This document shows, in pieces, positions 31,115 to 46,086 of a DNA stretch of 64,000 nucleotides. How positions within the stretch are numbered: position 1 is the stretch's first letter; every line of letters begins with the position of its first letter. The stretch covers positions 25,314 through 89,313 of the forward strand of contig JAWBMQ010000002.1 in the NCBI GenBank assembly GCA_038828875.1, written 5' to 3'. The notes under the pieces were generated by a model. That model had not been told where the DNA came from, ran no database searches, and saw only the letters and a program-made list of their open reading frames with translations. The stretch comes from Candidatus Woesearchaeota archaeon (GTDB taxonomy: Archaea > Nanobdellota > Nanobdellia > Woesearchaeales > JAWBMQ01). The translations under genes were made by a program, and so were the position numbers.

Positions 31115-31148
31115 TTTGTTTATTTTTTATATTTTTTGAGGTGGGATA

Positions 31149-31505: not shown

Positions 31506-31932
31506 TCAGCTTTATGATGAATTTTATGCAAAGATGGGAGAATTTTTTAATAGTGAAGAAATTACAGATTCTTTAGTAATTTTGCTTTCAAGAAAAAAAG
31601 TTTTGGAAAATTATATTAACAAAGTAATTGATCAAGTTAATTATATCCGACATAAAAATGAAAATTTTTATTATGATGTTTTAGATGATTTATCAAAATT
31701 AACTATTAGTAAAATGTGGAAAGTTCTTAATAATAAACCATCTGAACAGCAATCACTTGAAGAATATGAGAAAAATATTCTAGAATATCATAAAGAAGTA
31801 ATAGATTGTGCTAACGATTTAATATATTTGAAAAAGTTGATTGATTATTATACTCTTTATGATCTTTTTTGTGCTCCATATTATTTAGAAGAAGCAAAAA
31901 AATTTTCTAAACAAATTATTAAGGAGGTATAA
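31480..31932 (+). CDS. Hypothetical protein (block ORF 8)
   Basis: ORF overlapping the previous gene by 26 bp. Confidence 0.45.
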   Translation: MKMIDDKIDQLYDEFYAKMGEFFNSEEITDSLVILLSRKKVLENYINKVIDQVNYIRHKNENFYYDVLDDLSKLTISKMWKVLNNKPSEQQSLEEYEKNILEYHKEVIDCANDLIYLKKLIDYYTLYDLFCAPYYLEEAKKFSKQIIKEV

Positions 31933-31934
31933 AA

Positions 31935-32456
31935 ATGACTCTTCCTACAAGTATAGAAAAGATAATTAATGAGTATTATACTATTATAAATGCATTTCAT
32001 TCGAAGTACTTTAAAAATGAAAATTATAACTACACAAACAAATTTGCAGCATATAAGAAAATTTTTGAAAGTAATGAAGAAATATTAGATTATTTTTCTC
32101 AAAAAATTTCAGAAGATGCTAAAAAAAATATTAAACAATATAAAAAATTGCTGAATCTTTTTGATGAATTTAGGAAAGAATATTCTAAGTTTTGCAAAGA
32201 AAAGAAAAAAGTTGAAATAATATATCATAATAATAAAGAGTACAATTTAGAAGAATATTTCTATGATTTAGATAAAATTGCTTTAGAGATGTTAAAAGAT
32301 AGCAATGTTGAAGATGTTGGAAAAACGTTAAATGAGTTTTTGAAAAAGCGAATTGATTATATTGCAAAAGGTTATCAATTATCTATAATGTATTTGAATT
32401 TAATGGATGAATGTTCAAAAGTTTATGAAGATGGTGGATTGTATGACTCTCGATAA
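31935..32456 (+). CDS. Hypothetical protein (block ORF 9)
   Basis: ORF preceded by GGAGGT. Begins 3 bp after the previous stop. Confidence 0.5.
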   Translation: MTLPTSIEKIINEYYTIINAFHSKYFKNENYNYTNKFAAYKKIFESNEEILDYFSQKISEDAKKNIKQYKKLLNLFDEFRKEYSKFCKEKKKVEIIYHNNKEYNLEEYFYDLDKIALEMLKDSNVEDVGKTLNEFLKKRIDYIAKGYQLSIMYLNLMDECSKVYEDGGLYDSR

Positions 32457-32973
32457 AAAATTAAATGAACTTTATAAGAATTTGAAAGATAAATGGAAAC
32501 AGTTTGAAGAGTGGGAAAATCAGATTAGATCAAAATATCTTGAAAAATGGAAAAGTAAAGATATTGAAGATATCTATCAATTTATTAAATATCCTATGAG
32601 TTATGAGTTAATGAACCTTATTTTAGAGAAAGAATCAAAATATTATAAATTAAACGTAAAAACAAATAATGAGTATGATCAATTGTTTAATAAATTTTTA
32701 GAACTAAAAGATAAGAAATTTAAAAAGGATTATGTTAAATTTAATGGAACAACAATCTATTCTCTGGAAGATTTATTTTATATAACAAGAAATTCAACGG
32801 ATTTACCTTTTGTTTTTTTAGAAACTTCTTATTCTTTAGGTCTAAATGAAACTTCAACTATGAATATTTTTGAAAATTATTTAGAAGATTTAAAAAGTTA
32901 TTATCAATCTCTTTATGAATTCATAGATATGTTAACAAATTACATTGTAAAAAGAGGTGATAAAAATGAATAA
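32407..32973 (+). CDS. Hypothetical protein (block ORF 10)
   Basis: ORF overlapping the previous gene. A later start, e.g. MTLDKK at ~32443, is possible. Confidence 0.45.
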   Translation: MNVQKFMKMVDCMTLDKKLNELYKNLKDKWKQFEEWENQIRSKYLEKWKSKDIEDIYQFIKYPMSYELMNLILEKESKYYKLNVKTNNEYDQLFNKFLELKDKKFKKDYVKFNGTTIYSLEDLFYITRNSTDLPFVFLETSYSLGLNETSTMNIFENYLEDLKSYYQSLYEFIDMLTNYIVKRGDKNE

Positions 32974-33550
32974 TTTAGAAAAAATTACATCAATGTCTTA
33001 TCCTGAGTACAAAATGATAGAAGATAGGTGGAAGAAACATTTAGATTATATTGCTTCAAGAATCAATATGTTGTATAGTTCAATTGGCAATAAAACATTA
33101 ATAGATAAATTTTTGAATTATTATCAGCAAAGCAATGGAAATCTATATAATAAATTAAACGATCTTTTTTCTCAATATAATATAATGCTAAGCTATTCCT
33201 CAAATTCTAAAGTAAATGCAATTATTCAAGAGATAACTCAAGAAATACAAATTTATGAAAATCTAAAAAATAAGTTAGAGGAAATAACTTTTTCTCCAGA
33301 GAAAAGGTATAATTTTAGCGATATGATAAAAAAATATATTCAAGAGAACAACATAAAGAATTTTAATTTAGTAAAAGATTTTCCAAAATTGTTTTTTTGG
33401 ATCTCTAGGAAGAATAACCTAAATACTCAAGAGATAAAAGTAGGTTTAGACACATATATTTTGAAAAGAGAACAAATGTATTACAGTTTATTTAATTTAG
33501 TTGAGCTTTCTATAGATTTAGTAAAACAAGTATCCAGTAATAAAAAATAA
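32957..33550 (+). CDS. Hypothetical protein (block ORF 11)
   Basis: ORF preceded by AGAGGTGA. Confidence 0.5.
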   Translation: MIKMNNLEKITSMSYPEYKMIEDRWKKHLDYIASRINMLYSSIGNKTLIDKFLNYYQQSNGNLYNKLNDLFSQYNIMLSYSSNSKVNAIIQEITQEIQIYENLKNKLEEITFSPEKRYNFSDMIKKYIQENNIKNFNLVKDFPKLFFWISRKNNLNTQEIKVGLDTYILKREQMYYSLFNLVELSIDLVKQVSSNKK

Positions 33551-33599
33551 TAGATTTTGAAATCATAATATTTTTTAATTCTTTTTTGATATTTTATAA

Positions 33600-34133
33600 T
33601 TGGTGATACAGATGAAAGTTGGAAAAAATATTGAAAAAAAATTAGATGAATTATCTTTTAAAAGGTTAAGTATGGAATATTATAGAGCTTTAGAATTGTT
33701 ATATTCAAATTATATTTCATATAGATTTAGAGAACACATTGAAAATGAGAATATAAAAAATTACTATAATTTTGAGAAAGAAATTTCAAAGAAAGTGAAT
33801 CAAGAGCTAAAGCCTGTTCATGATATGTTTAATTACGTCAAAAAATCAATATTCGAATATCTTGATAATCCAGAAAACTTTAAAGATCCTGTTGTTTTTA
33901 AGTATTATGTTAAATCTTTGGTCAATCAGTTTGAAAAGACAAATTCTTTTTTTGAAAAACATGTTATGCCATATCTTTGTCAAAAACTAGAAAATAGAAA
34001 AGCAAATATAGTTAGTTATGATAAAGCAAATAAAAAGATATACTTTTTCTATACTAATCGGTATGAAGAGATGAACAATCTTTACAAAACAATGCAAATG
34101 ATCACAGAAAAGCTGAAAAAAGCCATTTCTTAA
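33600..34133 (+). CDS. Hypothetical protein (block ORF 12)
   Basis: ORF preceded by GGTGATA. Confidence 0.5.
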   Translation: MVIQMKVGKNIEKKLDELSFKRLSMEYYRALELLYSNYISYRFREHIENENIKNYYNFEKEISKKVNQELKPVHDMFNYVKKSIFEYLDNPENFKDPVVFKYYVKSLVNQFEKTNSFFEKHVMPYLCQKLENRKANIVSYDKANKKIYFFYTNRYEEMNNLYKTMQMITEKLKKAIS

Positions 34134-34187
34134 TCTTTTTTATTTTTTTAAGTTTTCTTTAAAATTTTAAAAAATTTTATAAATGAT

Positions 34188-34760
34188 TTGTATTTATCAT
34201 ACAGTGATAAAATGTCTTTGGATTTCAATATTGAAAAATATTATGAACATTTGTTGGAAGAAGTAAGAGATAGTTTAGTTTCTTTAGGTTGGGATAAGCA
34301 GTTTGTTGATGAACATATTCAAGAGTTAAATAAATATAATAGATATTCTTTATCAGAAGAAACCGATTTAGAATTGAGAAGATATAAAAATTTAATACAT
34401 AAAATTTATTTAGGAATGCCTTATAGATTGAAAGAATATTTTTTAGAAAGATCTGAATATGTTTCTTTAGATGTAAATAAAATCTTAGAACTTTTTGATG
34501 AAACTTATGATAAATTAATAGAATTTAGAAATAAAAAAAGAAATTCAGAATTAAAAGATTATGTTGATCAAGAAAGTAAATTTTTAACTGAACTAGTTCA
34601 CTATGGTTTAGGTATTGAAAATATAGAATCTATTTTTGAGATTATTTATTCTGATGAAGATCATCTTGATGAAAATACGATTTATGAAAAAAATCAAGCG
34701 GCAATAAGTTATATAAAAGATTTTTATTTTCCTGAATTAATTTTGAAAAAAGATGATTAA
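34188..34760 (+). CDS. Hypothetical protein (block ORF 13)
   Basis: ORF. Confidence 0.45.
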   Translation: MYLSYSDKMSLDFNIEKYYEHLLEEVRDSLVSLGWDKQFVDEHIQELNKYNRYSLSEETDLELRRYKNLIHKIYLGMPYRLKEYFLERSEYVSLDVNKILELFDETYDKLIEFRNKKRNSELKDYVDQESKFLTELVHYGLGIENIESIFEIIYSDEDHLDENTIYEKNQAAISYIKDFYFPELILKKDD

Positions 34761-34762
34761 AT

Positions 34763-36007
34763 ATGGATTCATACGAATATAACCTTTTGAAAAGAGAGCG
34801 AAATTTAGTAGATCTTTTTGAAAAAAATTCACATTTCCTTTTTTATGAAAATTTAAGAAAAAATTTTTCATATGCTGATGCTGATAAACTTTATGCAATT
34901 ATCGTTACTAAAATATCTTCTTTAGATTATTCTCTTCTTTTAGAGCTTAAAGCAGGAATAGAAGATAAGATTAATGATTATTACAACAATAGACAAATCT
35001 ATTCTTCAAAAATTTTTGATGAGTTAGAAGAACGATTGATTAAAGAAGCAAAACCATTCCTTGATAAAATTAGAAATGAATATAATTTATTTTATAACAT
35101 AGTATTATCTAATTTAAATCATCTCAAAGATCATGAGGCTTTTGCAGAAGCATTAATAAATATGACTTTAGCTGAAATTATCACCTTAGATTTAACATAT
35201 AAAGAAATTTCATCTATGGAAATGAATTATGCGTATTTAAAATATGATGAAATTAAGAACAAAATTTTAAAAAACAAAGAAAAAAGAATTTACATTCAAC
35301 CTGAGTTTGATGCAATTTTAAATGCATCATTATCAATTTCTGATAAAGATTTTATGCGATATTTACCTAGTTTTTTTGATCATTATAAATATGTTTTTGG
35401 TTTTGTATTAAGCAAAAATTCCTTTGAAAATTTAAAAAATTCAATTCAGGATTATAAAAATTCTATGGATAGAATTTGTTTTGATTTTCTAGAAGAAATT
35501 TCTAAGAAGAACATTTATTTTTTACCGACTACTTTCGAATTGAGATATAAGACGTTAGTTCCAGAAATGGAAATTTATGTTAATGAAAGTTATTATAAGA
35601 AATTGATGGTACAGCTTGATGTTTCTTATTTTTCAATGGAATATCAGAATTATATCTTAGAAAAATTTCAAAAGATAAAATCTTTTAATCTAGAAATTTT
35701 AGAAGATAATAAACTAAATGCTTCTTCTTTATTTCAAAACTTAGAAACATTAATTAAAGACCCCATGAAGTCAGAATCCCTCTTTTTAGAACCTATCTTA
35801 AAGATAATTCAAGATGCAATGTTAAACAATTCGAATTATTCAAATATATTCTTTAAAGAATTGAAAAATCAATATTTGAAAATAGCATTTTATGGAAATC
35901 TTATTGAATCTCTTGATTTAATTCAGGATTACTTTAATTATAGTAATAAGTTAGAAAAATTCAATGATTTTTTAAATTATTTAGACAATAAATGTAATCT
36001 AAGATGA
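34763..36007 (+). CDS. Hypothetical protein (block ORF 14, 414 aa)
   Basis: ORF beginning 3 bp after the previous stop. Confidence 0.5.
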   Translation: MDSYEYNLLKRERNLVDLFEKNSHFLFYENLRKNFSYADADKLYAIIVTKISSLDYSLLLELKAGIEDKINDYYNNRQIYSSKIFDELEERLIKEAKPFLDKIRNEYNLFYNIVLSNLNHLKDHEAFAEALINMTLAEIITLDLTYKEISSMEMNYAYLKYDEIKNKILKNKEKRIYIQPEFDAILNASLSISDKDFMRYLPSFFDHYKYVFGFVLSKNSFENLKNSIQDYKNSMDRICFDFLEEISKKNIYFLPTTFELRYKTLVPEMEIYVNESYYKKLMVQLDVSYFSMEYQNYILEKFQKIKSFNLEILEDNKLNASSLFQNLETLIKDPMKSESLFLEPILKIIQDAMLNNSNYSNIFFKELKNQYLKIAFYGNLIESLDLIQDYFNYSNKLEKFNDFLNYLDNKCNLR

Positions 36008-36543
36008 CATTTGACTTAGAAAGAAAACTCAATCAATATTTTTTGGAATATAAGGAAAAGTTGTTTAATCAAGGCATTCCTGAAAAATTCATAAATTATT
36101 ATACGGATTATTTTTTTAACAAAATTGATAAGTTAGTTTTTATCTATGAAAGTGCAGAGAAAAAATTAGATTCGATTTATTTTCTCTTAAACGAAATTTT
36201 TGTAGATGATAAAAAGATAGATGACATTCTTTTTTCTTGTGATCCTTTCCTTTCAGAGTATTATTTTAGCATAGATCTTTTGATGACTTCTCTTGAACAA
36301 ATAACATCAACAAATGAAATAAATTTCAAAGAAATTAAATCAGAATTGAGAAATTATTATAAAGCAGTTACTACTTTTATAAAATGCGCATATTATTTTG
36401 ATAAAATTTATTATGTGATAAGTGATGCAACTTTATTTTTAGATAAAAGCTTTCAAAATAATGAAAAAAAGATGTACAACTACATTAGATACAATATTTC
36501 TTTGTTAAAAGAGCAATATCATAGCAAAAAATTTAAAAACTAA
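36004..36543 (+). CDS. Hypothetical protein (block ORF 15)
   Basis: ATGA start/stop overlap with the previous gene. Confidence 0.5.
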   Translation: MTFDLERKLNQYFLEYKEKLFNQGIPEKFINYYTDYFFNKIDKLVFIYESAEKKLDSIYFLLNEIFVDDKKIDDILFSCDPFLSEYYFSIDLLMTSLEQITSTNEINFKEIKSELRNYYKAVTTFIKCAYYFDKIYYVISDATLFLDKSFQNNEKKMYNYIRYNISLLKEQYHSKKFKN

Positions 36544-36561
36544 AAAATAATAAATAGTTTT

Positions 36562-37185
36562 ATGGCATCTAAAACATTAAAGATCTTTATTGGTGTAGCT
36601 GGATTATTTACTGGAATTTCTTTGCTTTTTCCTCAAACCTACACAGGAAATTTTGTCAATCAAAATCCATCTTTTAGTATTTTTTCTTATTTAATGATTT
36701 TAGCATCATTTTTGTTGATTCTTGTTGCATCATCAGAATCAGAGACTTCAGAAAAGAAAGAAACTCTTGAAAATATAGTTGATGAATCTATTGATCCTGA
36801 TTTAGAAAAGTATTATTCTTTAGCAAAAAAAATATCAGAAAGCTATGAAAAAGCAATAGTACCTAAATATGATAAAGAACAAATAAAGGTAGATCTCTTT
36901 AATCTTATGAAAGGAAATATTTTATATTATGAAGAGAATAAAGAGAAGATGAAAAGGATTTTGGATTATTTATCAGCTAACAAAGATAAAGAATTGGCAG
37001 AATTAGTAAAAACAAAGATTGATTTCTTACAGAAAGAATTAGAATATATGATCAATTACATTGATGATTTTGAATATTCTTTAGATAAGGATAAAAAAGA
37101 GATGAACATAAAAAGTAAGAGAGAAGAGTTGCTGAAAGAGTTGAATGAATATTATAAAAAAGTAAAAAGCAAGTTGCAATATTAA
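36562..37185 (+). CDS. Hypothetical membrane protein (two N-terminal TM helices plus a coiled-coil tail; block ORF 16)
   Basis: N-terminal segments IFIGVAGLFTGISLLF and FSYLMILASFLLILVA, followed by a K/E-rich heptad-like tail. Confidence 0.5.
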   Translation: MASKTLKIFIGVAGLFTGISLLFPQTYTGNFVNQNPSFSIFSYLMILASFLLILVASSESETSEKKETLENIVDESIDPDLEKYYSLAKKISESYEKAIVPKYDKEQIKVDLFNLMKGNILYYEENKEKMKRILDYLSANKDKELAELVKTKIDFLQKELEYMINYIDDFEYSLDKDKKEMNIKSKREELLKELNEYYKKVKSKLQY

Positions 37186-37557
37186 TTATTTTTTCTTAAT
37201 AGTCTTTTTTAAAACATTTAATGGAAGCAAAGCACATTTAATTCTATTAATCCCTAAAGGAATTTTAATCATGTTTCTTATGAATGTTTCATCAAGTTTT
37301 TCAATTTCTTTTATTGATTTTCCAATTGCGTAATCTAATAACATATCAGCACTTGCGATGCAAATAGAACATCCTTTTCCTGAAAACTTTGCATCTTTTA
37401 TTTTTCCATTTTCTAAAACAACAAACATTTGAATATGATCTCCACAAATTGCATTTTCTTCTTCATCACTCAAACTGTTATCAATCTTTCCAAAATGAAC
37501 TGGTTTTTGACTTCTTTCTATGATTTCGTTAAGCATATTGATTATTATGAAGTTCAT
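37186..37557 (-). CDS. Fe-S cluster assembly scaffold, IscU/SufU/NifU-like N-terminal domain
   Basis: Three conserved Cys motifs: CGDHIQMF, GKGCSICIAS and RIKCALLP. Confidence 0.7.
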   Translation of the reverse strand: MNFIIINMLNEIIERSQKPVHFGKIDNSLSDEEENAICGDHIQMFVVLENGKIKDAKFSGKGCSICIASADMLLDYAIGKSIKEIEKLDETFIRNMIKIPLGINRIKCALLPLNVLKKTIKKK

Positions 37558-37641: not shown

Positions 37642-38574
37642 ATGAAAAATCCTTTTGATGTTAAATCCTTGGATGAATTGGTTTTAATGTTTAGAGATTA
37701 CAAAAATTATGATATTAGAACCTATGAAACAGAGAAATATAGTTATCAAATAAGTGATTATGATTACCTAATCATATCTAAGAAGGATTTCAAATCAAAG
37801 CATATTTACTTTGACTATTATTTTGTTCTTCTGGATCAACTTTATCAGAATTTTATGCTAGAAATAAATGATAATGAATTTTATCTTTCTTATAACAATC
37901 AAAAAATAAGACTTGCAAAACCTAATCAAGTTATCAATGGCTTGTTTTGTTTCTTAGACGATTCTGTTTTAGATATTTTTGTTGAAGACAATGAGTATAT
38001 GAATTCCTTGTACAAAAATTTAACAAATTTGATTTCGTCAGTTAAAAAAGTGAGTGTTTTTGATCAGATAGATAAAACCATTTTTTTAAAATCTTCAACA
38101 AAGAAGAATTTGATAAACGTATTAGATGAACTTTTTGTGCTTAGACAAGTAACTAAAAAAGTATCAATTTTATTGACTTATGATGTTGTTGATGAAAAAT
38201 TTTTAAGCATAAAATATGCAATTGATAATAAAGACAATGATAAATTTTATGTGCCTTTGGATTTTTACATAAAAGAAGGTAAAGGAATTTGTAAGCAATT
38301 TTCTTTACTTTATGGTTATTTTTTAGAAAAATTGATTCAAGAGAAATATCTTCCAGGATCTTTTGCAATAGATTTAAATTATCGTGATTTCAACGATTTG
38401 CCTAGTGGAGGCCATATGTGGGTAAGATATACTTCAGAAGCAGGAAATGTTTTTATTTTAGATAATAACCATATTATTGAATTGTTTTCTTCAAAAGAAA
38501 ATAAAAGTAATGCATATTATAAAAGACCTTACGAATTTGAGGAATATGTTAAGAAAAAAATAAAGAATGTTTAA
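37642..38574 (+). CDS. Transglutaminase-like / papain-fold cysteine protease superfamily protein, paralog 1
   Basis: Candidate Cys-His-Asp triad: GKGICKQFSLLYGYFLE, ~50 aa later GGHMWVRY, ~15 aa later FILDN. No signal peptide. Confidence 0.55.
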   Translation: MKNPFDVKSLDELVLMFRDYKNYDIRTYETEKYSYQISDYDYLIISKKDFKSKHIYFDYYFVLLDQLYQNFMLEINDNEFYLSYNNQKIRLAKPNQVINGLFCFLDDSVLDIFVEDNEYMNSLYKNLTNLISSVKKVSVFDQIDKTIFLKSSTKKNLINVLDELFVLRQVTKKVSILLTYDVVDEKFLSIKYAIDNKDNDKFYVPLDFYIKEGKGICKQFSLLYGYFLEKLIQEKYLPGSFAIDLNYRDFNDLPSGGHMWVRYTSEAGNVFILDNNHIIELFSSKENKSNAYYKRPYEFEEYVKKKIKNV

Positions 38575-38622
38575 CCACTACAAGATAGTAAAATTTATAA
38601 GGAAATTTATTTTTCTTTTTTT

Positions 38623-39585
38623 ATGGATAAATTGTTCAAAGCTAAAAGTTATGAAGAGTTGGAAGATTTAATTTATGAATATCTTGATCACGATCATAGA
38701 TGCTATCAGGATTTTAAAAGATATTATGAGATAAGCGATTATGATTACCATATTACGTTTTTAAATGATTCTAAAAGGTTTGTTGAGGTTTCTTTTTCAT
38801 ATTTTTACAATTTGTTTGATCATCTTTTGATAAATCAATTGATAAAAGTAAAAGATAATGAATTTATTCTTCAAGATTGTGATCTTAAGTTGGTTAAAGA
38901 GGATTCAGTTATCAATAGGTTGTTTTATCTATATCAGATTCAAGAACCTGCACACATTTATATTGAGGACAACGATTACATGAATAAAATCTATAATTCT
39001 TTGAAAGAAAGAATTTCTAAATCAAAAGAAAAATCAGTACTTCAAGAGATTGACAAAACAATTCATCTTAAAGAGCAAACGAAGAACAATTTAGAAGATC
39101 TTTTAATTCATGAACTGAATATTCTCAATAATGTTAGATTAACAGTATTGGAACATTTAAGATATGATTATTTTAAAGAAAATCAAATTGCAAAAATCAA
39201 ATCAAAAAATAGAAAAATTATTGTTGAAAAACCTTATGTGTTGTTAGATGAATTTATAAGAGAAAGAATTGGAGTTTGTAAGCAATTTTCTTTGTTCTAT
39301 GGTTACTTAATTGAAAAATTAATACAAGATAATATTCTTTTTGGAAACTATTGTTTGGATTCTAACTTAGTTTATTCCTCAGAAAAACCACCTTCAAGTC
39401 ATATTTGGGTAAGATATAAAACCATAACAGGTTCAACATTCATACTTGATCAAGAATATATTTTGGAATTAAATTCAAAAGTCGAAAACAAGATGACTAT
39501 TTTTTATAAAAGACCTAAGGAGTTCGAAAGACACATTGTTGGCTTGTTAAATGCAAAATTAATGGTAATAAACAAAAAAGCTTAA
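38623..39585 (+). CDS. Transglutaminase-like cysteine protease superfamily protein, paralog 2
   Basis: GVCKQFSLFYGYLIE ... SHIWVRY ... FILDQ. Shares the N-terminal ISDYDYHI motif with paralogs 1 and 3. Confidence 0.55.
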   Translation: MDKLFKAKSYEELEDLIYEYLDHDHRCYQDFKRYYEISDYDYHITFLNDSKRFVEVSFSYFYNLFDHLLINQLIKVKDNEFILQDCDLKLVKEDSVINRLFYLYQIQEPAHIYIEDNDYMNKIYNSLKERISKSKEKSVLQEIDKTIHLKEQTKNNLEDLLIHELNILNNVRLTVLEHLRYDYFKENQIAKIKSKNRKIIVEKPYVLLDEFIRERIGVCKQFSLFYGYLIEKLIQDNILFGNYCLDSNLVYSSEKPPSSHIWVRYKTITGSTFILDQEYILELNSKVENKMTIFYKRPKEFERHIVGLLNAKLMVINKKA

Positions 39586-39599
39586 TAAAATTAACTACC

Positions 39600-40592
39600 A
39601 TGGAAAAAATTTTCAAAGCTAAAACTTTAGAGGATTTAGATCGTTTTATTTTTAGAAATGAGTCTCATGATCATAGAGTATATGAGGATTATGATTTTTA
39701 TTATTACATAAGTGATTATGATTATCATATTTGCCCAAAATGGGATTCTAGAAAAACAATAACAATTTCTAGAGATTATTATTACCAACTTTTCAAAGAT
39801 CTTCGAAATCAATCTAAGTTAGAGATAAAGGATAATGAATTCTTCTCAAAAGATCATGATATTCCTATTGTAAAGCCCAATAAAATCAAAGATAGAGTAT
39901 TTATTTTTTATAAAGAACCATTAGACATTATAGTTCAAAACAATGACTATATGCAAAATATCTATGAAAGATTAAAGAAAAAGATCTTTTCTACAAAGAA
40001 AGGTGAAGTTCTAAGCAGTATAAATAATGAAATTTTTTTAACAAAAAAAACTTATGAAAAGTTAGATGATATTACTTTAAATGAGCTTCATTTTTTGAAA
40101 AATTTGAGAGATGTAGTTAATGAAATTTTAGTTTATGATGTGAAAGAAGAAAACAAACTTCTTACAGAATTTATAATAAAAGAGATTCAGGAAATAAAAG
40201 TCTTTGATGATCTTTTTGCCTTTTTATATAATCCAACAAAAAATAGGATATCCATAAAATTAGAGGAATACTTAAAACGAGGAAAAGGAGTTTGTAAGCA
40301 ATTTGCATTGCTCTATGGTTATTTATTAGAATCATTAAGTGATGATTTTCTTTTAGCTGGAAATTTCTCTTTAGATCTGTATCTAATTAATGATTATAGA
40401 GATAGTTTGAATTTAGGTCATATTTGGGTAAGGTATGAATCTTTAGAAAATAAAGTATTTATTCTTGATCAAAGATATATTTTGGAGTTGTTTTCTAATA
40501 CAGAAAGACAAATAGGTCAGCATTATAATACGCCTAATGAATTTGAAGAATATATCAAGAGAAGAATAAAGAATAAATATTATTCAGTATAA
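39600..40592 (+). CDS. Transglutaminase-like cysteine protease superfamily protein, paralog 3
   Basis: GKGVCKQFALLYGYLLE ... GHIWVRY ... FILDQ. Confidence 0.55.
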   Translation: MEKIFKAKTLEDLDRFIFRNESHDHRVYEDYDFYYYISDYDYHICPKWDSRKTITISRDYYYQLFKDLRNQSKLEIKDNEFFSKDHDIPIVKPNKIKDRVFIFYKEPLDIIVQNNDYMQNIYERLKKKIFSTKKGEVLSSINNEIFLTKKTYEKLDDITLNELHFLKNLRDVVNEILVYDVKEENKLLTEFIIKEIQEIKVFDDLFAFLYNPTKNRISIKLEEYLKRGKGVCKQFALLYGYLLESLSDDFLLAGNFSLDLYLINDYRDSLNLGHIWVRYESLENKVFILDQRYILELFSNTERQIGQHYNTPNEFEEYIKRRIKNKYYSV

Positions 40593-41422
40593 AATTCTTC
40601 TTCTATTCTAGAAACTTCACCATTTTTATTATGATAAACTTTAACGAATCCAAAACCAACATAAGGAACAATCTTTTTTCCTTTCATAAATAAAGTTTGA
40701 TTGCATAATGTTCCAGATTCAAAAGCGTGAATGTTTCTTCTGAAGATATACAGATACTTATGATAATGTCCTGAATGTAAAATATTAGGTTTATTTTCAC
40801 CTTCAAGAGCGTCAATTAATTTTTCAATTTGATAGCTCATTCCAAATGCACTCTTATCGTTAGCATGGAAAAGTTTAATCTTAATTCCATCAATAGTAAT
40901 ACTTCCATCCATTTGTCCAAGATGAACATAATTATCTAAAACTTCTTCAAGCTTTTTTCCTACTATGATGCCAATGTTAAACTTGCTATGGTACCACATA
41001 TCATGATTTCCATCAATGCCATAAATAGTTACAGGAATTTTACTTAACAATTCAACAGCGTAATTGAATTGTTCATCAAATCCTATCTTTTCTAATTCAT
41101 AAATGTGTCCATCTCTTCCAGACATACCTTCCAAAGTATCACCGACATTTATTACAAAATCTGGTTTCTTTTGTTTAATCATTTTCACCATATAGTCAAA
41201 CATTTTTTTGTTGAATTGTTTATGTCCTATGTGAGGATCTGCAAAATAACAATAATAAAAGCTTTTGTTTCCTAAATCAATTTTCAAAGGTTCTTCTTCC
41301 TTTTGTTTAGCGTTTAAAATTATTTGTTCTAATTTATCTAAAGAAACATTATTTTCCTTCATCAATTTGATAATTTTTTCTAAATTACCATTATACATTT
41401 TAATGATTTCATCATCATTCAT
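40580..41422 (-). CDS. Calcineurin-like metallophosphoesterase, paralog A
   Basis: Motifs D-x-H (FADPHIG), GD (NVGDTLEG), GNHD and GHYH. Confidence 0.75.
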   Translation of the reverse strand: MNDDEIIKMYNGNLEKIIKLMKENNVSLDKLEQIILNAKQKEEEPLKIDLGNKSFYYCYFADPHIGHKQFNKKMFDYMVKMIKQKKPDFVINVGDTLEGMSGRDGHIYELEKIGFDEQFNYAVELLSKIPVTIYGIDGNHDMWYHSKFNIGIIVGKKLEEVLDNYVHLGQMDGSITIDGIKIKLFHANDKSAFGMSYQIEKLIDALEGENKPNILHSGHYHKYLYIFRRNIHAFESGTLCNQTLFMKGKKIVPYVGFGFVKVYHNKNGEVSRIEEEFYTE

Positions 41423-41430
41423 CTTTTCAC

Positions 41431-42339
41431 CTAATCTCTATAACTTGGAACAAAAACATGATTTAATCTTTTTATTTCATTATTTTCATAATTAACTTTT
41501 ACAATACCAAAGCCCATTGCTGCTGGAATTTTTTTATTTTTCATGTACAACGTTTGTCCACATAAGGTTCCTGACATAATTGCTACAATATCTCTTAATT
41601 CTGTTTTAAATGCTTGATGATAATGTCCTACGTGCAAAATGTTCGGTTTTTCACCGCCTCTAATACTTGCAATAAGTTTCTGAATTTTATAACTTGTAGT
41701 ATATGCTGGAGTATCAGTAGGATGAAATAACATGATTTTTATAGAATTTACTAAGATGTGTCCTTCTAATTGTCCAAGATAATTATAATTAGGTAATTCC
41801 TTTTCTAATTCATAACCTACTATAATTTGATTATTTTTCTTTTTGTAGAATTCTTTATCATGTTCTCCATCTATTGCATAAATTGGAATCTCAATTAAGC
41901 TTAGAAGATTTTTAGCATAATTCAACTGTTCTTGTAAGCCAAATTTATCCAATTCAAATGTGTTTCCTTCTATGCCTTTCATTCCTTGAACAAGATCTCC
42001 AACAAAAACCACAAAATCAGGTCTGTACTTCTTTATAGCTTTTAGCATTTTAAGATAAAGCTTTTCACTGAATTCAATATTACCCATATGAGTGTCAGAA
42101 AAGTACAAATATTGAAACTTTTTTTCAGGAATATCTATTTTAGCTGCTTCTTTAACAATATTTTTAGAACCAAGAATCATTGCTTCTAAATCTTCTAAGT
42201 TTAGTTTATATTTATTCATGAACTCAATTACTTTCTTTTTATCTTCATCACTTATCTTTATATTCTTGACTTCAAAACTTTTAAGAATATCTTCTAAATT
42301 CCCCCCCTCGTTCATTTTACTTTTATTAGTTTTTAACAT
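41431..42339 (-). CDS. Calcineurin-like metallophosphoesterase, paralog B
   Basis: Motifs FSDTHMG, VGDLVQG, GEHD and GHYH. A G7 tract lies at codons 4-6. Confidence 0.75.
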   Translation of the reverse strand: MLKTNKSKMNEGGNLEDILKSFEVKNIKISDEDKKKVIEFMNKYKLNLEDLEAMILGSKNIVKEAAKIDIPEKKFQYLYFSDTHMGNIEFSEKLYLKMLKAIKKYRPDFVVFVGDLVQGMKGIEGNTFELDKFGLQEQLNYAKNLLSLIEIPIYAIDGEHDKEFYKKKNNQIIVGYELEKELPNYNYLGQLEGHILVNSIKIMLFHPTDTPAYTTSYKIQKLIASIRGGEKPNILHVGHYHQAFKTELRDIVAIMSGTLCGQTLYMKNKKIPAAMGFGIVKVNYENNEIKRLNHVFVPSYRD

Positions 42340-42452
42340 TTATTAATTTTGTTGAAATTAAATATATAGATTAATTGAGTACTTTAGTTGTGCTTTATTT
42401 TTGAATACTATTTTTCAAGAATTAATTTTTTTGTTTTTGTTTTGTTACTAAC

Positions 42453-43625
42453 TTATATCTTTTTTAAAACATCAACAAACATATCAATTTCTTCAAAAGT
42501 GTTATAGAAATAAAGTGATGCTCTCACGCTTCCTTGATTGAAGTTTAAAGCATTATGTAAAGGCATTGCACAGTGAAAACCTGATCTAGTTGCTATGTTT
42601 TTTTCATTAAGCAAAGCACTCACATCATGACAATGCAATTTTTTATGTCTAAATGCAAATAAAGCTTGATCTGGCTCAGAAATCAGTTCTATATTATTAA
42701 GTTTTGTTAACCTTTCATAAAGATAATCTCTTAGCTTTTTTTCATACTTTTCAATGTTTTTCATGCCTAATTTGTTTAGATAATCAATTGCTGCTTTTAA
42801 GCTATAAGCTTCAACAAAAGGTTGAGTTCCTGCTTCAAATTTTTGAGGAATTTCAGCAGTTGAAAAATCTTCTTTAGTTACTTTGCTTATCATTTCTCCT
42901 CCACCAAGAAATGGTGGAATTTCTTTTGCTAAATCTTTATCTATTTTTAATACTCCTATTCCTGTACTAGCTAGCATTTTATGTCCTGAAAATGCAAAAG
43001 CGTGTGCTTTCAAATTAAATTCATGATGTGGAATGTATTGAGCTAAATCTAGAATAAGAAATCTTGCTCTTTTAGCTATTTTCAAAGTTTCTTTGTTTAT
43101 GTTTTTTCCAGTTACGTTTGAAGATGCTGTGATACTTAAAATGTCTGTGTTTTTAACTTTTTTTTCTAAATCTTCAACATCAATGTACTTTGTATTTTTA
43201 TCAATTTTAACAAAATCAAGCATTATCTTTTTCTTTTTTGCAAGGATTTGCCAAGGAACTATGTTGGAATGATGTTCTAATTCACTTATAGTTACATTAA
43301 TCTCTTTTTCTTTTTCTAATAAATAATCTGTTAAAGAATTAGCAATCAAGTTTATTCCCTCTGTTGTGTTCTTAACAAAAACAATCTCTTCGGGTTTAGC
43401 ATTTACGAATTCAGCAACTTTTCTTCTAGAATCTTCAAACAATTCTGTAGCTTCTTCACTCAACCTGTACAATCCTCGATGAGTGTTTGCATAGTGTTTA
43501 AGAAAGAAATCATTCATTGCTTGAATTACTTGTTTTGGTTTCAAAGTACTAGCTGCATTATCAAAATATATCTGTTCAAAATGAAAATCATTCCTTATTT
43601 TTTCCAAGTTTTTTTCAATATCCAT
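42453..43625 (-). CDS. sufS: Cysteine desulfurase (class V aminotransferase, SufS/NifS-like)
   Basis: PLP-Lys motif SGHKM and C-terminal RSGFHCAMP catalytic Cys loop. Confidence 0.8.
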   Translation of the reverse strand: MDIEKNLEKIRNDFHFEQIYFDNAASTLKPKQVIQAMNDFFLKHYANTHRGLYRLSEEATELFEDSRRKVAEFVNAKPEEIVFVKNTTEGINLIANSLTDYLLEKEKEINVTISELEHHSNIVPWQILAKKKKIMLDFVKIDKNTKYIDVEDLEKKVKNTDILSITASSNVTGKNINKETLKIAKRARFLILDLAQYIPHHEFNLKAHAFAFSGHKMLASTGIGVLKIDKDLAKEIPPFLGGGEMISKVTKEDFSTAEIPQKFEAGTQPFVEAYSLKAAIDYLNKLGMKNIEKYEKKLRDYLYERLTKLNNIELISEPDQALFAFRHKKLHCHDVSALLNEKNIATRSGFHCAMPLHNALNFNQGSVRASLYFYNTFEEIDMFVDVLKKI

Positions 43626-44097
43626 TTTTTTCTAAAATTTCATCAACTATTTTTTTTTCATCTTCTGTAATGTTAAGATGATTATATATTATTACTCTTT
43701 CAGGATTTTTAACATTTTTGCTTTTCAAATAAAATAAGAACTCTTTGTTCAATGGTTGAATTCGTGCAGAATGTTTGGCTTTTTTTATTCCATTTATTAG
43801 TAATGCTGGCATTATAGTAGTTGATTCTTTCAACTTTATCACATCAATTTCAATATTAACTTCATCCTTTCCATAAACAAAAATCTCTAAATTGCTTAAC
43901 GAAACTGCATTTATATTTATTGTTGAATTTGTAACTTTGTTTATCATAATTCTATTCTTTTCATTTGCAAGAATGAATATTTTACAATTGTTTAATATTT
44001 CTAAATCTATTTGATTCTTTCCATAGATGAATATTTCAGCTTCTTTTTCAATCCTTAAATTTCCCTCAAATTTAGTTATTAATATTTTGTCTTTCAT
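43615..44097 (-). CDS. Short (160 aa) SufD-like beta-helix fragment, or divergent Suf accessory protein
   Basis: Repetitive beta-helix-like segments with AKHSARIQP, similar to the SufB/D C-terminal motif. Too short for a canonical SufD. Confidence 0.35.
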   Translation of the reverse strand: MKDKILITKFEGNLRIEKEAEIFIYGKNQIDLEILNNCKIFILANEKNRIMINKVTNSTININAVSLSNLEIFVYGKDEVNIEIDVIKLKESTTIMPALLINGIKKAKHSARIQPLNKEFLFYLKSKNVKNPERVIIYNHLNITEDEKKIVDEILEKNGY

Positions 44098-45419
44098 TTT
44101 TCCATCGCTAATTCGATTAGTTTATTTAGTTCTATGGCATATTCTAAAGGCAACTCCTTAGCTACAGGACTTAAAAATCCTAAAACAAGTAAAGTTTTTG
44201 CTCTGCTTTCAGGAATTCCTTTGCTTTTTAAATAGTAAAGTAAAGTTTCATCAATGTAACTTGCTTTAGCTTCATGCTTAAGCAAAACATCTCCATTGTT
44301 TATATTAGTAGGAAATGTATTACTTTCTGCTTTTTCAGAAAGTATTAAACTATCACAATCAATGTTTATCATTCCTGAAGAATTTTCAGTAGTTTTAGCT
44401 AAGCTTCTAAAATTAGCTATAGCATTATCTTTAACTAGGGATTTGTTTATAACGTTAGCTCGACAATTTTTTCCTTGAAACAATACTTTTGCTCCTGCAT
44501 CTATTATTTGATTTTCAGTTGCTAAACTTAAGCTTAAAATTTCAGCTTTGGCATTATCTTTAAGTATAGCCATAGGATATTTCATTGTTAACTTGCTTCC
44601 TAGGTTTCCATCAATCCATTCAATGATTCCATTTTCTTCAACTAATGCTCTTTTAGTTGAAAAATTATAAACGTTCTTACTCCAATTTTGTATTGTAGTG
44701 AAACGCATCTTTCCATTTTTCTTAACGAAGATCTCTACAACTCCTGCATGAACATTAGCTTTCTTATAGATTGGAGCTGTACAACCTTCTATGTAATGTA
44801 ATTCAGCATCTTCATCTACAATAATTAAAGTTCTTTCAAATTGTCCTGTTCTTTCAAAATTTATTAAGTAGAATGTTTGTAACGGCATTTCTAGCTTAAT
44901 TCCTTTTGGAACGTAAATGAAAGTACCTCCTGTCCAAGCTGCTGCATTGAGTGCTGCAGCTTTATTATCTGAAAAGCCAATTAATTTTCCAAAGTATTCT
45001 TTTACTAAGTTTTCATGATTTTTTACAGCTTCTTCCATTGATTCAAAGATTATTCCTCTTTTCTTAATTTCTTCTTTTAGTTTCTTATAAATAACTTCTG
45101 CTTCTAGCTGAGTTGCTGAACCACTTAAATAGTTAATTTCTGCTTCAGGAATGCCTAGCTTTTTGTAAGTTTCTTTTATTTCTTTTGGTAGTTCTTCTAG
45201 ATCGTTTATTTTTTTATTTAAGGCTTTTACATCAATGAGTATGTCTTCATAATCTATTTTCTCTACAGGACTCCAGGAAGGCATATCTAATTTGAAGAAA
45301 AATTCTAAACCTTTCAATCTGAAATCAAGTAACCATTTTGGTTCTTGCCTTTCTTTACTTAATTCAACAATATTCTCTTTAGTTATTCCAATTTTTGAAG
45401 CCATTTTTCTCAATTTCAT
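44094..45419 (-). CDS. sufB: Fe-S cluster assembly protein SufB (SufB/SufD family)
   Basis: Conserved SufB C-terminal beta-helix region. Adjacent to sufC. Confidence 0.8.
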   Translation of the reverse strand: MKLRKMASKIGITKENIVELSKERQEPKWLLDFRLKGLEFFFKLDMPSWSPVEKIDYEDILIDVKALNKKINDLEELPKEIKETYKKLGIPEAEINYLSGSATQLEAEVIYKKLKEEIKKRGIIFESMEEAVKNHENLVKEYFGKLIGFSDNKAAALNAAAWTGGTFIYVPKGIKLEMPLQTFYLINFERTGQFERTLIIVDEDAELHYIEGCTAPIYKKANVHAGVVEIFVKKNGKMRFTTIQNWSKNVYNFSTKRALVEENGIIEWIDGNLGSKLTMKYPMAILKDNAKAEILSLSLATENQIIDAGAKVLFQGKNCRANVINKSLVKDNAIANFRSLAKTTENSSGMINIDCDSLILSEKAESNTFPTNINNGDVLLKHEAKASYIDETLLYYLKSKGIPESRAKTLLVLGFLSPVAKELPLEYAIELNKLIELAMEK

Positions 45420-46086
45420 CTAAAAGCTCTTTGTTTCCGGATTTTATAATTGTTTTCAACAAAATATGCACTTTGTCTATATTCAGTTCTTTTAATAATC
45501 TTGAATTATGGGAAATCAAAATTATTCCAACATCTTGCTTAATTTTATTTAAAATTTTTGAAAATATTTTCAAGTTGTCAATATCTACGCCAGAATCAAT
45601 TTCATCAAGGATTAAGAATTTAGGTTTTTGCAATAAGCAAAGCATAAGTTCAATTCTTTTCTTTTCTCCTCCACTGAAACCTGTGCTTCTGCTAAGATAG
45701 CTTTCAGGAATGTTAAGTTTTTCTAACAATTCTTTAAGTTTCTTTTGAAATTCTACGGCATTGTAATTGTTCTGTGCTATGTACCATGCTAATTGCCTTA
45801 ATTGTAGATTTTCAAACTCAGGTACATGTTGAAAAGCTATTGATATTTCTTTAGCTATATTTTCTGTTTTTTCATTAGTTATGTCTTTATCATTTAACAA
45901 AATTTTTCCTTCTTTTTGGTAATTAGGATGGTTCATTATTGCATTTATTAAAGAAGTTTTTCCTACTCCATTAGGACCAACAATTACATGAATTTCATTC
46001 TGTTTTATCTCTAAAGAAACATTTTCTATCAATTTTTTTCCATCAGCTAACTTTACACTCAGATTTTTTAACTTTAGTGTGTTCAT
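45379..46086 (-). CDS. sufC: Fe-S cluster assembly ATPase SufC (ABC ATPase)
   Basis: Walker A GPNGVGKTS, ABC signature LSGGEKKR, Walker B FLILDEIDSG, H-loop. Confidence 0.85.
   Translation of the reverse strand: MNTLKLKNLSVKLADGKKLIENVSLEIKQNEIHVIVGPNGVGKTSLINAIMNHPNYQKEGKILLNDKDITNEKTENIAKEISIAFQHVPEFENLQLRQLAWYIAQNNYNAVEFQKKLKELLEKLNIPESYLSRSTGFSGGEKKRIELMLCLLQKPKFLILDEIDSGVDIDNLKIFSKILNKIKQDVGIILISHNSRLLKELNIDKVHILLKTIIKSGNKELLDEIEKNGFKNWNN

What the first reader, a model, noticed from the sequence alone, without database searches (positions are those of the whole stretch)
40580..42339. Tandem paralogous calcineurin-like phosphoesterases adjacent to the transglutaminase-like triplet
Two adjacent minus-strand genes (280 and 302 aa) share all metallophosphatase motifs (D-x-H, GD, GNHD/GEHD, GHYH) and a ~60-aa N-terminal extension (...NVSLDKLEQIIL / ...KLNLEDLEAMIL). 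Together with the TGase-like triplet they form a ~5-kb block of duplicated enzyme genes inserted between iscU-like (37186-37557) and sufS-sufB-sufC (42453-46086), all on the minus strand. The insert splits what is normally a compact Fe-S assembly cluster. This suggests an accessory cassette. A functional coupling of TGase-like and phosphoesterase enzymes in this context has not been described.
Basis: partly seen in the sequence, partly recalled or inferred. Interest (0 to 1): 0.55.

Follow-up and report, generated by a model that had tools for sequence, protein, structure and literature searches.

The report
Duplicated DP1-like phosphoesterase gene pair
Two neighbouring genes in a small Woesearchaeota (DPANN) archaeon encode sister copies of a mostly virus-borne enzyme whose closest solved relative is the proofreading nuclease subunit of archaeal DNA polymerase D. 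The pair is real and conserved, but nothing ties it to the adjacent transglutaminase-like genes or to iron-sulfur assembly.

Summary
Genes 41431-42339 (MPE-A, 302 aa) and 40580-41422 (MPE-B, 280 aa) are minus-strand tandem paralogs, 47% identical, with all five metallophosphoesterase motifs. They lie between sufS and sufU of a Candidatus Woesearchaeota chromosome.

The family is large (1,268 clusters at E<=1e-30), patchy in cells and common in tailed-virus contigs. There it sits beside terminase and portal genes and often carries inteins.

The tandem pair occurs only in this small clade and stems from one duplication. Both copies are under strong purifying selection (dN/dS 0.04-0.06).

MPE-A alone carries family-unique active-site changes (motif III N to E; H to R in a sister species). 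At least three independent MPE-MPE fusions elsewhere show the same polarity: degenerate first domain, intact second. I infer a heterodimeric DNA nuclease with one catalytic subunit.

The TGase-like triplet is on the opposite strand, absent from a relative that keeps the pair, and hypervariable, so the cassette idea fails. sufS-sufU adjacency elsewhere supports the view that the suf cluster was split.

The parts
41431..42339 (-). MPE-A, the upstream paralog (302 aa). It is a stand-alone DP1-like metallophosphoesterase with an altered active site: motif II GDLVQG (41983-42003) and motif III GEHD (41857-41871). Motifs I, IV and V are intact.
40580..41422 (-). MPE-B, the downstream paralog (280 aa), with the canonical catalytic set: DPH (41225-41239), GDTLEG (41126-41146), GNHD (41000-41014), H186 and GHYH (40760-40771).
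   Evidence: ORF; Pfam Metallophos 28.2 bits; NCBIfam best hit is the DP1 model NF003118, E 3.9e-14, far below its cutoff. All catalytic positions match the family consensus. dN/dS 0.038 against L134.
41423..41430 (-). 8-bp spacer between MPE-A and MPE-B. The spacer is 2 bp in relative L001 and 8 bp in L134. This implies a bicistronic unit.
   Evidence: Coordinates. Co-transcription is inferred, not shown.
42340..42452 (-). 113-bp AT-rich spacer between sufS and MPE-A. It holds a TATA-like 'TATATATTTAA' about 20-30 nt upstream of the MPE-A ATG, which could be an own promoter for the pair.
   Evidence: Sequence. This is inference only. The genome is about 25% GC, so such strings are common, and the bacterial-type promoter scan was uninformative.
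42453..46086 (-). Context: sufC (45379-46086), sufB (44094-45419), short sufD-like gene (43615-44097) and sufS (42453-43625).
   Evidence: Pfam and NCBIfam hits. Syntenic in L001 and L134.
37186..37557 (-). Context: sufU/NifU_N scaffold gene, separated from sufS by the pair and the triplet.
   Evidence: PF01592 E 7.8e-19; TIGR01994 SufU E 2.3e-23, below its cutoff. Directly adjacent to sufS in other lineages.
37642..40592 (+). Neighbour, not part of the unit: three paralogous putative TGase-like (Cys-His-Asp) genes, 39-41% identical to each other. They are lineage-specific and hypervariable.

Best explanation
The two genes are an old, lineage-specific tandem duplication of a stand-alone metallophosphoesterase. 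Its catalytic domain is the closest known relative of the PolD small-subunit (DP1) proofreading phosphodiesterase, with Mre11 next.

The family is large. It is mainly carried by tailed viruses of bacteria and archaea, at the junction of the replication and packaging modules. It is scattered patchily in cellular genomes.

An ancestor of a small Woesearchaeota clade acquired one copy between sufS and sufU and duplicated it. Both copies are now maintained host genes.

Inferred mechanism: a two-metal phosphodiesterase that trims or cuts DNA, acting as a 3'-5' exonuclease and/or an endonuclease on ends or branched DNA. I infer that it works as a heterodimer. MPE-B (280 aa, canonical motifs) performs catalysis. 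MPE-A (302 aa) has unique substitutions of metal-binding or catalytic residues and serves as a modified, possibly non-catalytic, partner.

Shown: paralogy, family membership, DP1-like fold and sequence, distribution, purifying selection and the active-site asymmetry.

Inferred: DNA as the substrate, heterodimer formation and co-transcription.

I found no evidence that the pair is functionally linked to the TGase-like triplet or to Fe-S cluster assembly.
For: Paralogy and motifs.

DP1-likeness:
- NCBIfam best hits are DP1 models (E 3.9e-14).
- The family profile against PDB gives six DP1 entries on top (1.4e-13 to 1.1e-8), then Mre11 at 9e-5.
- The Foldseek PDB top 10 are all DP1.

Family size and distribution:
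- 3,646 clusters at E<=1e-3 and 1,268 at E<=1e-30.
- 180 confirmed IMG/VR hits.
- Halorubrum tailed virus BLv36 ORF43.
- 44 loci scattered across archaeal and bacterial phyla among 185,579 species genomes.

Viral neighbourhood:
- TerL lies within 5 kb in 43 loci, and all but one of the TerL ORFs are co-oriented.
- Portal genes are usually downstream.
- DnaB, NrdD/NrdG, DNA methylase and HNH genes are nearby, mostly upstream.

Duplication history:
- The pair occurs only in the window, L134 and L001-type genomes.
- The NJ tree gives ((win280, rel297), (win302, rel348)), which means one duplication before these species split.

Selection: dN/dS is 0.038 and 0.056, comparable to sufB at 0.048.

Active-site asymmetry: the motif III Asn is E only in the two upstream paralogs out of 244 members, and the motif III His is R only in the relative's upstream paralog.

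Recurrent two-unit architecture:
- 8 of 148 top representatives are fused MPE-MPE proteins from at least 3 independent duplications.
- In every one the N-terminal domain is degenerate and the C-terminal domain intact.
- 28 intact fused ORFs were verified in metagenome DNA.

Functional analogy: other stand-alone phage MPEs with Mre11/DP1-like predicted folds show exonuclease or DNA-degrading activity and are needed for phage DNA replication (PMC11795197, PMC12287305).
Against: - No biochemical data exist for any member of this family, and none was found in the literature searches.
- DP1 alone is a weak nuclease that depends on DP2 (established knowledge). No polymerase partner was seen in the window or in relatives' loci.
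- MPE-A keeps six of the seven metal ligands or catalytic residues, and Glu could still bind metal. It may therefore be fully active with a different specificity.
- The heterodimer is argued only by analogy with the fusions. No multimer prediction could be run.
- The polarity argument rests on only about four independent events.
- The tree is neighbour-joining without support values.
- dN/dS rests on few substitutions, because the proteins are about 98% identical.
- Metallophosphoesterases with similar folds act on many non-DNA substrates.
Confidence: 0.55

Rival explanations
1. One reading: the phosphoesterase pair and the TGase-like triplet form one accessory cassette whose enzymes work together.
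For: The five genes are physically adjacent in the window and in the close relative L134. Both sets are duplicated enzyme-like genes.
Against: - The two sets are on opposite strands and converge.
- The triplet is absent from L001, which keeps the pair.
- TGase-like homologues exist only in the window's narrow lineage.
- Evolutionary rates are discordant.
- None of about 130 other loci carrying family members contains a TGase-like gene.
- No PADLOC defence-system model matches either set; the one TG3 match at E 0.0029 is negligible.
Confidence: 0.04
2. The pair is a functional accessory of the SUF Fe-S assembly operon. It could be co-transcribed with sufCBD'S and sufU, for example as an iron-dependent enzyme that is co-regulated with suf or acts on a suf-related substrate.
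For: The pair has the same strand and short gaps within a sufC-to-sufU gene string. This is conserved across two species whose suf proteins are only 60-71% identical.
Against: - The association is confined to this one clade. Other Woesearchaeota and all viral or bacterial homologues lack suf neighbours.
- In L001 reverse gyrase, which is unrelated to Fe-S assembly, sits in the same string.
- The closest relatives of the fold are DNA nucleases.
- A 113-bp spacer with a TATA-like element precedes MPE-A.
Confidence: 0.08
3. The proteins are phosphoesterases for a non-DNA substrate, such as nucleotides, cyclic or oligo-nucleotide signals, or phosphoproteins. In viruses this could mean host takeover or anti-defence. 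Here it would be a domesticated housekeeping hydrolase.
For: - The superfamily is functionally very diverse.
- Weak hits were seen to YfcE and LpxG models.
- The mycobacteriophage MPE D29 gp66 is reported to hydrolyse mono-esters, diesters and cAMP (cited in PMC12287305).
Against: - The margin in favour of DP1, then Mre11, is clear in both sequence and structure.
- DP1-specific sequence signatures beyond the metal motifs align, namely GDxxDG...PGxxxEL and GHxH...GT.xxQTxF.
- Viral neighbours are DNA replication, modification and packaging genes.
Confidence: 0.2
4. The two paralogs are independent enzymes (homodimers or monomers) with diverged specificities. They do not form an obligate heterodimer with a catalytically impaired partner.
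For: MPE-A retains most catalytic residues and is under purifying selection as strong as that on MPE-B. Tandem paralogs often subfunctionalise without interacting.
Against: - Independent fusions of two units into one polypeptide recur, always with a degenerate first domain.
- The sister species' MPE-A has lost the motif III His. Mutating the corresponding His abolishes DP1 proofreading, as in PDB 6hmf, the 'H451 proof-reading deficient variant'.
- The pair has kept a 2-8 bp spacing in all three genomes.
Confidence: 0.25

Closest known systems
PolD small subunit DP1 (e.g. Pyrococcus abyssi, PDB 5IHE/6HMF/8PPT), the 3'-5' proofreading phosphodiesterase of archaeal D-family DNA polymerase
   Different: The window proteins have no OB-fold domain and no DP1 N-terminal domain, only about 60-75 helical residues before the catalytic domain. 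They score far below the DP1 family cutoffs (52.5 bits against 445). No DP2 gene is nearby. The family is mostly viral and patchy rather than a universal archaeal replication gene.
Mre11/SbcD double-strand-break repair nucleases
   Different: The window proteins have no capping domain and no Rad50/SbcC partner gene next to them. Similarity is clearly weaker than to DP1.
Mycobacteriophage stand-alone metallophosphoesterases: Bxb1 gp47 (recombination directionality factor, also needed for replication) and A10ZJ24 gp48
   Same: These are phage-borne, single-domain proteins of about 250-300 aa. Their predicted fold is closest to Mre11 and DP1. Reported activities are weak exonuclease (gp47) and DNA degradation (gp48) (PMC11795197, PMC12287305). 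They host inteins at conserved motifs (PMC5050341), as this family does.
   Different: There is no significant sequence relationship beyond the generic motifs (hhalign E 0.017, HMM 6 bits). No serine integrase context was seen. The genes here are chromosomal, duplicated and in an archaeon.
Eukaryotic DNA polymerase B subunits (Pol alpha B, Pol delta p50/Pol31, Pol epsilon p59/Dpb2)
   Different: B subunits keep the OB fold and bind a polymerase C-terminal domain. Nothing of that kind is shown here.
MJ0936 / YfcE-type small phosphodiesterases (TIGR00040)
   Different: Scores are below the family cutoff (22.1 and 27.5 against 56.25). The window proteins are about 100 aa longer, with DP1-type insertions and a C-terminal beta-hairpin region.

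Membership tests
Calcineurin-like metallophosphoesterase superfamily (Pfam PF00149) | Score at or above the Pfam gathering threshold | tested here: met
   28.2 and 38.5 bits against a cutoff of 21.5.
Calcineurin-like metallophosphoesterase superfamily (Pfam PF00149) | Five metal-binding and catalytic motifs: DxH, GD, GNH(D/E), H, GHxH | tested here: met
   All are present in MPE-B. MPE-A has GEHD in place of GNHD.
PolD small subunit DP1 | Phosphodiesterase domain of DP1 type | tested here: met
PolD small subunit DP1 | OB-fold domain N-terminal to the phosphodiesterase domain | tested here: not met
   Only about 60-75 residues precede motif I. The model shows helices only up to residue 58.
PolD small subunit DP1 | Reaches the curated family score (NCBIfam NF003116-NF003120) | tested here: not met
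   Best score 52.5 bits against a cutoff of 445.
PolD small subunit DP1 | Partner large subunit DP2 encoded in the genome or operon | tested here: inconclusive
   No DP2-like or other polymerase gene was found among the window ORFs that were scanned or in relatives' loci. The rest of the genome could not be searched.
Mre11/SbcD | Nuclease domain followed by a capping domain | tested here: not met
Mre11/SbcD | Adjacent Rad50/SbcC ATPase gene | tested here: not met
   The neighbours are sufS and a TGase-like gene. No Rad50-like neighbour appears among the commonest neighbour clusters of the viral loci.
YfcE/MJ0936 phosphodiesterases (TIGR00040) | Curated family score | tested here: not met
   22.1 and 27.5 bits against a cutoff of 56.25.
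PPP-type Ser/Thr phosphatases (e.g. lambda NinI) | PPP fold and signature (GDxHG, GDxVDRG, GNHE) | tested here: not met
Bxb1 gp47-type phage MPE / recombination directionality factor | Sequence homology to gp47 | tested here: not met
   hhalign E 0.017 with probability 2.7%, and an HMM score of 6 bits.
Bxb1 gp47-type phage MPE / recombination directionality factor | Cognate large serine integrase in the same element | not tested
   No recombinase was seen among the scanned window genes, but no dedicated search was made.
Transglutaminase-like (PF04473/DUF553), for the neighbouring triplet | Family score and a Cys-His-Asp catalytic triad | tested here: inconclusive
   Scores are 19.2 and 18.8 bits against 20.5, and the third paralog has no hit. 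C219, H260 and D276 are invariant. There is no PDB hit, and no fold search was left to run.
SUF Fe-S assembly cluster (context) | sufC, sufB, sufD, sufS and sufU present | tested here: met
   ABC_tran, SUFBD_core, Aminotran_5 and NifU_N hits. The SufD-like gene is truncated at 160 aa and gives only a weak hit.

The most novel reading that the evidence does not exclude
This stand-alone family may be the viral sister group, or a source, of the DP1/B-subunit phosphodiesterase. The Woesearchaeota pair would then be a minimal proofreading or end-processing module. MPE-B would be the nuclease and MPE-A an inactivating partner that docks it onto a DNA polymerase or another replication or repair factor. 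That would replay, in unfused form, the active-to-inactive transition that produced eukaryotic polymerase B subunits. One gut-bacterial lineage places a fused member just downstream of a Y-family polymerase, which has no proofreading. That is compatible with this reading but counts as a single observation.
Probability: 0.1. Interest if true: 0.75.

Novelty: new variant of a known kind. Interest (0 to 1): 0.4.

Why it matters
The result gives a concrete, testable identity to genes otherwise labelled 'metallophosphoesterase family protein'. They are OB-less relatives of the PolD proofreading subunit.

The family is very common in uncultured tailed viruses. It is intein-rich, positioned at the boundary of the replication and packaging modules, and has no characterised member.

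Duplication has recurred in the family, each time with loss of catalytic residues in the first unit. This happened in at least three independent fusions and in this unfused pair. It offers a natural series for studying how a nuclease subunit turns into a structural partner, the route proposed for eukaryotic polymerase B subunits.

For the scan itself, the result removes a tempting but unsupported 'TGase plus phosphoesterase cassette' hypothesis.

Tried and rejected
- PADLOC scan of the pair, the triplet and five upstream ORFs: no meaningful defence-system hit.
- Search for att-like or tRNA-derived direct repeats in 26-43 kb, to test for a recent integration next to tRNA-Phe: only the triplet's own repeats and chance AT-rich matches.
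- Bacterial-type promoter and terminator scan: fewer sites than in shuffles, so uninformative for an AT-rich archaeon.
- Bxb1 gp47 RDF as a possible family identity: rejected, no significant similarity.
- tblastn against cultured phages: only Halorubrum tailed virus BLv36 (all genes annotated as hypothetical) and marginal Melnitz phage hits.
- Context of the fused proteins in IMG/VR: the P0022 and P0048 scans found nothing, and the alignment scan found only single-domain relatives. The metagenome scan succeeded.
- The AFDB50 fold library was not available.
- TGase-like family profile against PDB: no hit.
- Literature searches for DP1-like viral phosphoesterases and for Woesearchaeota metallophosphoesterases: nothing specific.
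- Composition: the pair shows no GC anomaly against its surroundings (0.27 against 0.22-0.29 for the neighbouring 2-kb bins), so there is no compositional sign of recent transfer.
Full report
**Observation**

The window is an AT-rich stretch (about 22-32% GC) of a Candidatus Woesearchaeota (DPANN archaeon) chromosome. MPE-A is identical to an NCBI MAG protein on a 138,535-bp contig. Elsewhere the window carries ordinary archaeal genes: ProRS, D-aminoacyl-tRNA deacylase, RadA, an S-layer protein, a NOG1-type GTPase and one tRNA-Phe.

At the reported coordinates there are two minus-strand ORFs, 41431-42339 (302 aa, here MPE-A) and 40580-41422 (280 aa, MPE-B), 8 bp apart.
- They are 47% identical over 271 residues (E 7e-83).
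- Both exceed the Pfam gathering score for Metallophos.
- Both carry the five metallophosphoesterase motifs and a shared helical N-terminal extension of about 60 aa.

The flanks are SufS, a short SufD-like gene, SufB and SufC on one side. On the other side are three paralogous genes (39-41% identical to each other) and then SufU. The triplet is on the plus strand, converging on and overlapping the 3' end of MPE-B. Its 'transglutaminase-like' label rests on two sub-threshold DUF553 hits and an invariant Cys-His-Asp set.

**What kind of phosphoesterase**

None of these is the best answer.
- In NCBIfam the best matches for both proteins are models of the PolD small subunit DP1 (E 3.9e-14 and 6.3e-12). 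These are ahead of YfcE but far below the DP1 family cutoffs.
- A profile of 16 family members searched against all PDB sequences returns six DP1 entries first (1.4e-13 to 1.1e-8). Mre11 follows at 9e-5 and MJ0936 at 0.03.
- That alignment covers more than the metal ligands. It includes the DP1-type stretches GDvvDGvgiyPGq..EL and GHvH...GTwqaQTeF.
- The ten best Foldseek matches in the PDB are all DP1.

The proteins are nevertheless not DP1. The region before the catalytic domain is a short helical segment, not an OB fold. No polymerase gene is nearby.

**The family and where it lives**

The word-indexed search found only 16 relatives. The exhaustive profile search found 3,646 clusters at E<=1e-3 and 1,268 at E<=1e-30.
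- IMG/VR contains at least 180 confirmed copies.
- The only clear member in a cultured virus is ORF43 of Halorubrum tailed virus BLv36.
- Among 185,579 species-representative genomes only 44 loci were found. They are scattered over Woesearchaeota, Methanosarcinales, Thermoplasmatales, Saccharibacteria, Bacillota, Bacteroidota and others. This is the pattern of a mobile or viral gene.
- BFVD matches are phage proteins. Some are auto-named 'DNA polymerase II small subunit' or 'metallophosphatase'.

I clustered the neighbours within 5 kb in about 125 loci.
- The commonest are terminase large subunits of several families, present in 43 loci. All but one of the TerL ORFs are co-oriented with the phosphoesterase gene, and two-thirds lie downstream of it.
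- Portal proteins are nearly always downstream.
- N6/N4 DNA methylases, DnaB, NrdD/NrdG, HNH endonucleases and small terminase subunits also recur.
- One close viral relative has the order methylase-TerL-MPE-portal.

About 15% of the best 148 representatives contain inteins. These are inserted at motif III, near motif IV, at an intermediate site and at motif V, and two proteins hold two inteins each. One further intein-bearing copy lies in viral locus L058. Such intein load is typical of viral DNA-metabolism proteins and has been described for mycobacteriophage metallophosphoesterases (PMC5050341).

The family is not exclusively viral. In another Woesearchaeota genome a single 280-aa copy lies among GlmS, phosphoglucomutase, RLI/ABCE1 and an aminoacyl-tRNA synthetase.

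**History of the pair**

Among 134 loci, two full-length copies in one locus occur only in the window and the L001-type relative (GCA_038888395.1 and GCA_038825875.1). A third genome, GCA_038889815.1 (L134), fetched afterwards, has the same pair and layout.

A neighbour-joining tree groups window-280 with relative-297 (62% identity) and window-302 with relative-348 (52%). The two groups are sisters, nested among viral and DPANN sequences. This indicates one duplication before these species diverged, with the upstream copy evolving faster.

L134 has exactly the window's layout. Comparison with it gives dN/dS of 0.038 for MPE-B and 0.056 for MPE-A, similar to sufB (0.048) and sufS (0.083). Both copies are therefore functional genes, not decaying prophage remnants.

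L001 has the order sufC-sufB-sufD'-sufS-reverse gyrase-MPE-MPE-sufU, all co-directional, with no TGase-like genes. In the nearest other SufU lineages, sufS and sufU overlap or abut (L135, where the SufS identity was confirmed, plus L136 and L137). The suf cluster has therefore indeed been split in this clade.

The content of the insert differs between relatives. The phosphoesterase pair is the constant part. Reverse gyrase (in one lineage) and the TGase-like triplet (in the other) are variable additions.

The triplet family was detected only in the window's own narrow lineage. It behaves like a variable island. TG1 is 97.7% identical between the window and L134, but TG2 is 81% and TG3 65.5% identical. 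Their dS is 0.56-0.96, against 0.05-0.2 for all flanking genes. No other locus with a family member contains TGase-like or suf genes.

The 'coupled cassette' reading is not supported. A functional tie to Fe-S assembly is unlikely.

**Active-site asymmetry and recurrent two-unit architecture**

I aligned 244 non-redundant family members to the family profile.
- The motif III Asn is conserved in 224 members. It is Glu in exactly two, the upstream paralogs of the window and of L001.
- The motif III His is conserved in 241 members and is Arg only in the L001 upstream paralog. This is the residue class whose mutation gives the 'proof-reading deficient' DP1 variant deposited as 6hmf.
- The window's MPE-A also has Gln where 232 of 244 members have Glu or Asp after motif II.
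- MPE-B is canonical at every position.

Independently, 8 of the 148 best representatives are proteins of 640-767 aa with two complete family domains.
- A tree of the half-proteins indicates at least three separate duplications.
- In all eight, the N-terminal domain has lost several catalytic residues while the C-terminal domain is intact.
- The fusions are real. 28 uninterrupted ORFs of 565-729 aa with two domains were found in rumen and human-gut metagenome contigs.
- Their contexts look cellular: CofD/YvcK, ProRS, VanY, NUDIX, a DNA-alkylation repair protein and, in one lineage, a co-oriented Y-family polymerase about 1.3 kb upstream.

The window's pair shows the same polarity, with the first unit altered and the second intact, but unfused and only partly degenerate.

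**Mechanism proposed**

Shown: the genes, their paralogy, the DP1-like fold and sequence, the distribution, purifying selection and the asymmetry.

Inferred:
1. The enzymes are two-metal phosphodiesterases acting on DNA, by 3'-5' trimming and/or cutting at ends or branches.
   - Their closest relatives are DP1 and Mre11.
   - Their viral neighbours are replication, modification and packaging genes.
   - Other stand-alone phage metallophosphoesterases with Mre11/DP1-like predicted folds show weak exonuclease activity and a replication requirement (Bxb1 gp47; PMC11795197) or DNA degradation (A10ZJ24 gp48; PMC12287305).
2. The two products form a heterodimer in which MPE-B is catalytic and MPE-A is a modified partner, by analogy with the repeated fusions.
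3. The pair is a bicistronic unit (2-8 bp spacing in all three genomes). It may have its own promoter in the 113-bp spacer after sufS, where a TATA-like element lies about 20-30 nt upstream of the ATG.

My confidence in the identity and history is high. My confidence in the DNA substrate and the heterodimer is moderate.

**Comparison with known systems**

The pair works like, and is structurally nearest to, the DP1 proofreading subunit. It fails DP1 membership on the OB fold and the family score, and no DP2 partner was seen.

It fails Mre11/SbcD membership because it has no capping domain and no Rad50 partner. It is not related in sequence to Bxb1 gp47.

It is best described as a new variant of a known kind: an OB-less, stand-alone DP1-type metallophosphoesterase family, here as a domesticated, duplicated and asymmetric pair.

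**Limits**
- No member of the family has been studied experimentally, as far as the searches show.
- The trees are neighbour-joining without support values.
- dN/dS values rest on few differences.
- Multimer prediction and a whole-genome census for PolD and Mre11 could not be run.

**Verdict**

The feature is real and correctly located. It is ordinary in being a metallophosphoesterase gene duplication, and moderately interesting for its DP1 affinity, its viral origin and the recurrent active/degenerate pairing. The proposed link to the TGase-like genes is not supported.

Noticed in passing
window 37642-40592 compared with L134 9020-12011: The three TGase-like paralogs form a hypervariable island. 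Between two otherwise about 98%-identical genomes, TG1 is 97.7% identical, TG2 81% and TG3 65.5%. Their dS is 0.56-0.96 against about 0.05-0.2 for all neighbours. This suggests allelic replacement or recombination. The family was detected only in this narrow lineage.
   Followed up: partly
L001 6550-9891 (GCA_038888395.1): A reverse gyrase gene (helicase, Toprim and Topoisom_bac domains, 1,113 aa) sits between sufS and the phosphoesterase pair in the relative. It is absent from that position in the window and in L134. It is a marker of thermophily in the clade.
   Followed up: no
window 43615-44097 (-): A truncated SufD-like gene of only 160 aa lies between sufB and sufS. It gives a weak SufD/SUFBD_core signal and is conserved at 45% identity in L001 and 96% in L134.
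   Followed up: no
representatives P0019, P0026, P0030, P0035, P0046, P0051, P0056, P0064, P0070, P0081, P0086, P0087, P0097, P0098, P0108, P0127, P0131, P0137, P0138, P0143, P0152, P0153; locus L058 5962-7659: About 15% of the best family representatives carry inteins at three to four distinct sites: motif III, near motif IV, profile position about 217, and motif V. Two proteins have two inteins each. LAGLIDADG and Hint domains were confirmed in two proteins.
   Followed up: partly
P0018, P0022, P0023, P0036, P0041, P0048, P0103, P0134; loci L141-L220: These are fused two-domain MPE-MPE proteins with a degenerate N-terminal domain and an intact C-terminal domain. Each domain is preceded by a helical, HTH-like segment. 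They are common in rumen and human-gut metagenomes. In one lineage (L197-L199, L203 and others) the gene lies about 1.3 kb downstream of a co-oriented Y-family DNA polymerase and near a DNA-alkylation repair gene. Only 28 of 80 loci give an intact ORF with table 11, so some hosts may use another genetic code.
   Followed up: partly
window 26358-37185 (+), including tRNA-Phe at 28424-28499 (-): About 19 co-oriented ORFs, mostly of 120-250 aa, gave no family hits where tested. They fill the 11 kb between the D-aminoacyl-tRNA deacylase gene and sufU. The relative L001 has only four genes there, and L134 shares at least the 28.6-37.2 kb part of the array (its fetched locus starts there). The 378-aa ORF at 27415-28551 overlaps the tRNA-Phe gene on the other strand and is probably over-called. 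No att-like repeats were found.
   Followed up: partly
window 3662-11611 (+) and 14-2461 (+): A giant 2,649-aa ORF and an 815-aa ORF share weak similarity (23% over 635 aa). Neither has a Pfam hit. They may be surface or host-interaction proteins of the DPANN cell.
   Followed up: no
L009 (IMGVR_UViG_3300005935_000516) 1639-8075: One of the closest viral relatives of the pair (40% identity) has the phosphoesterase gene inserted between the terminase large subunit and the portal gene, that is, inside the packaging module.
   Followed up: partly
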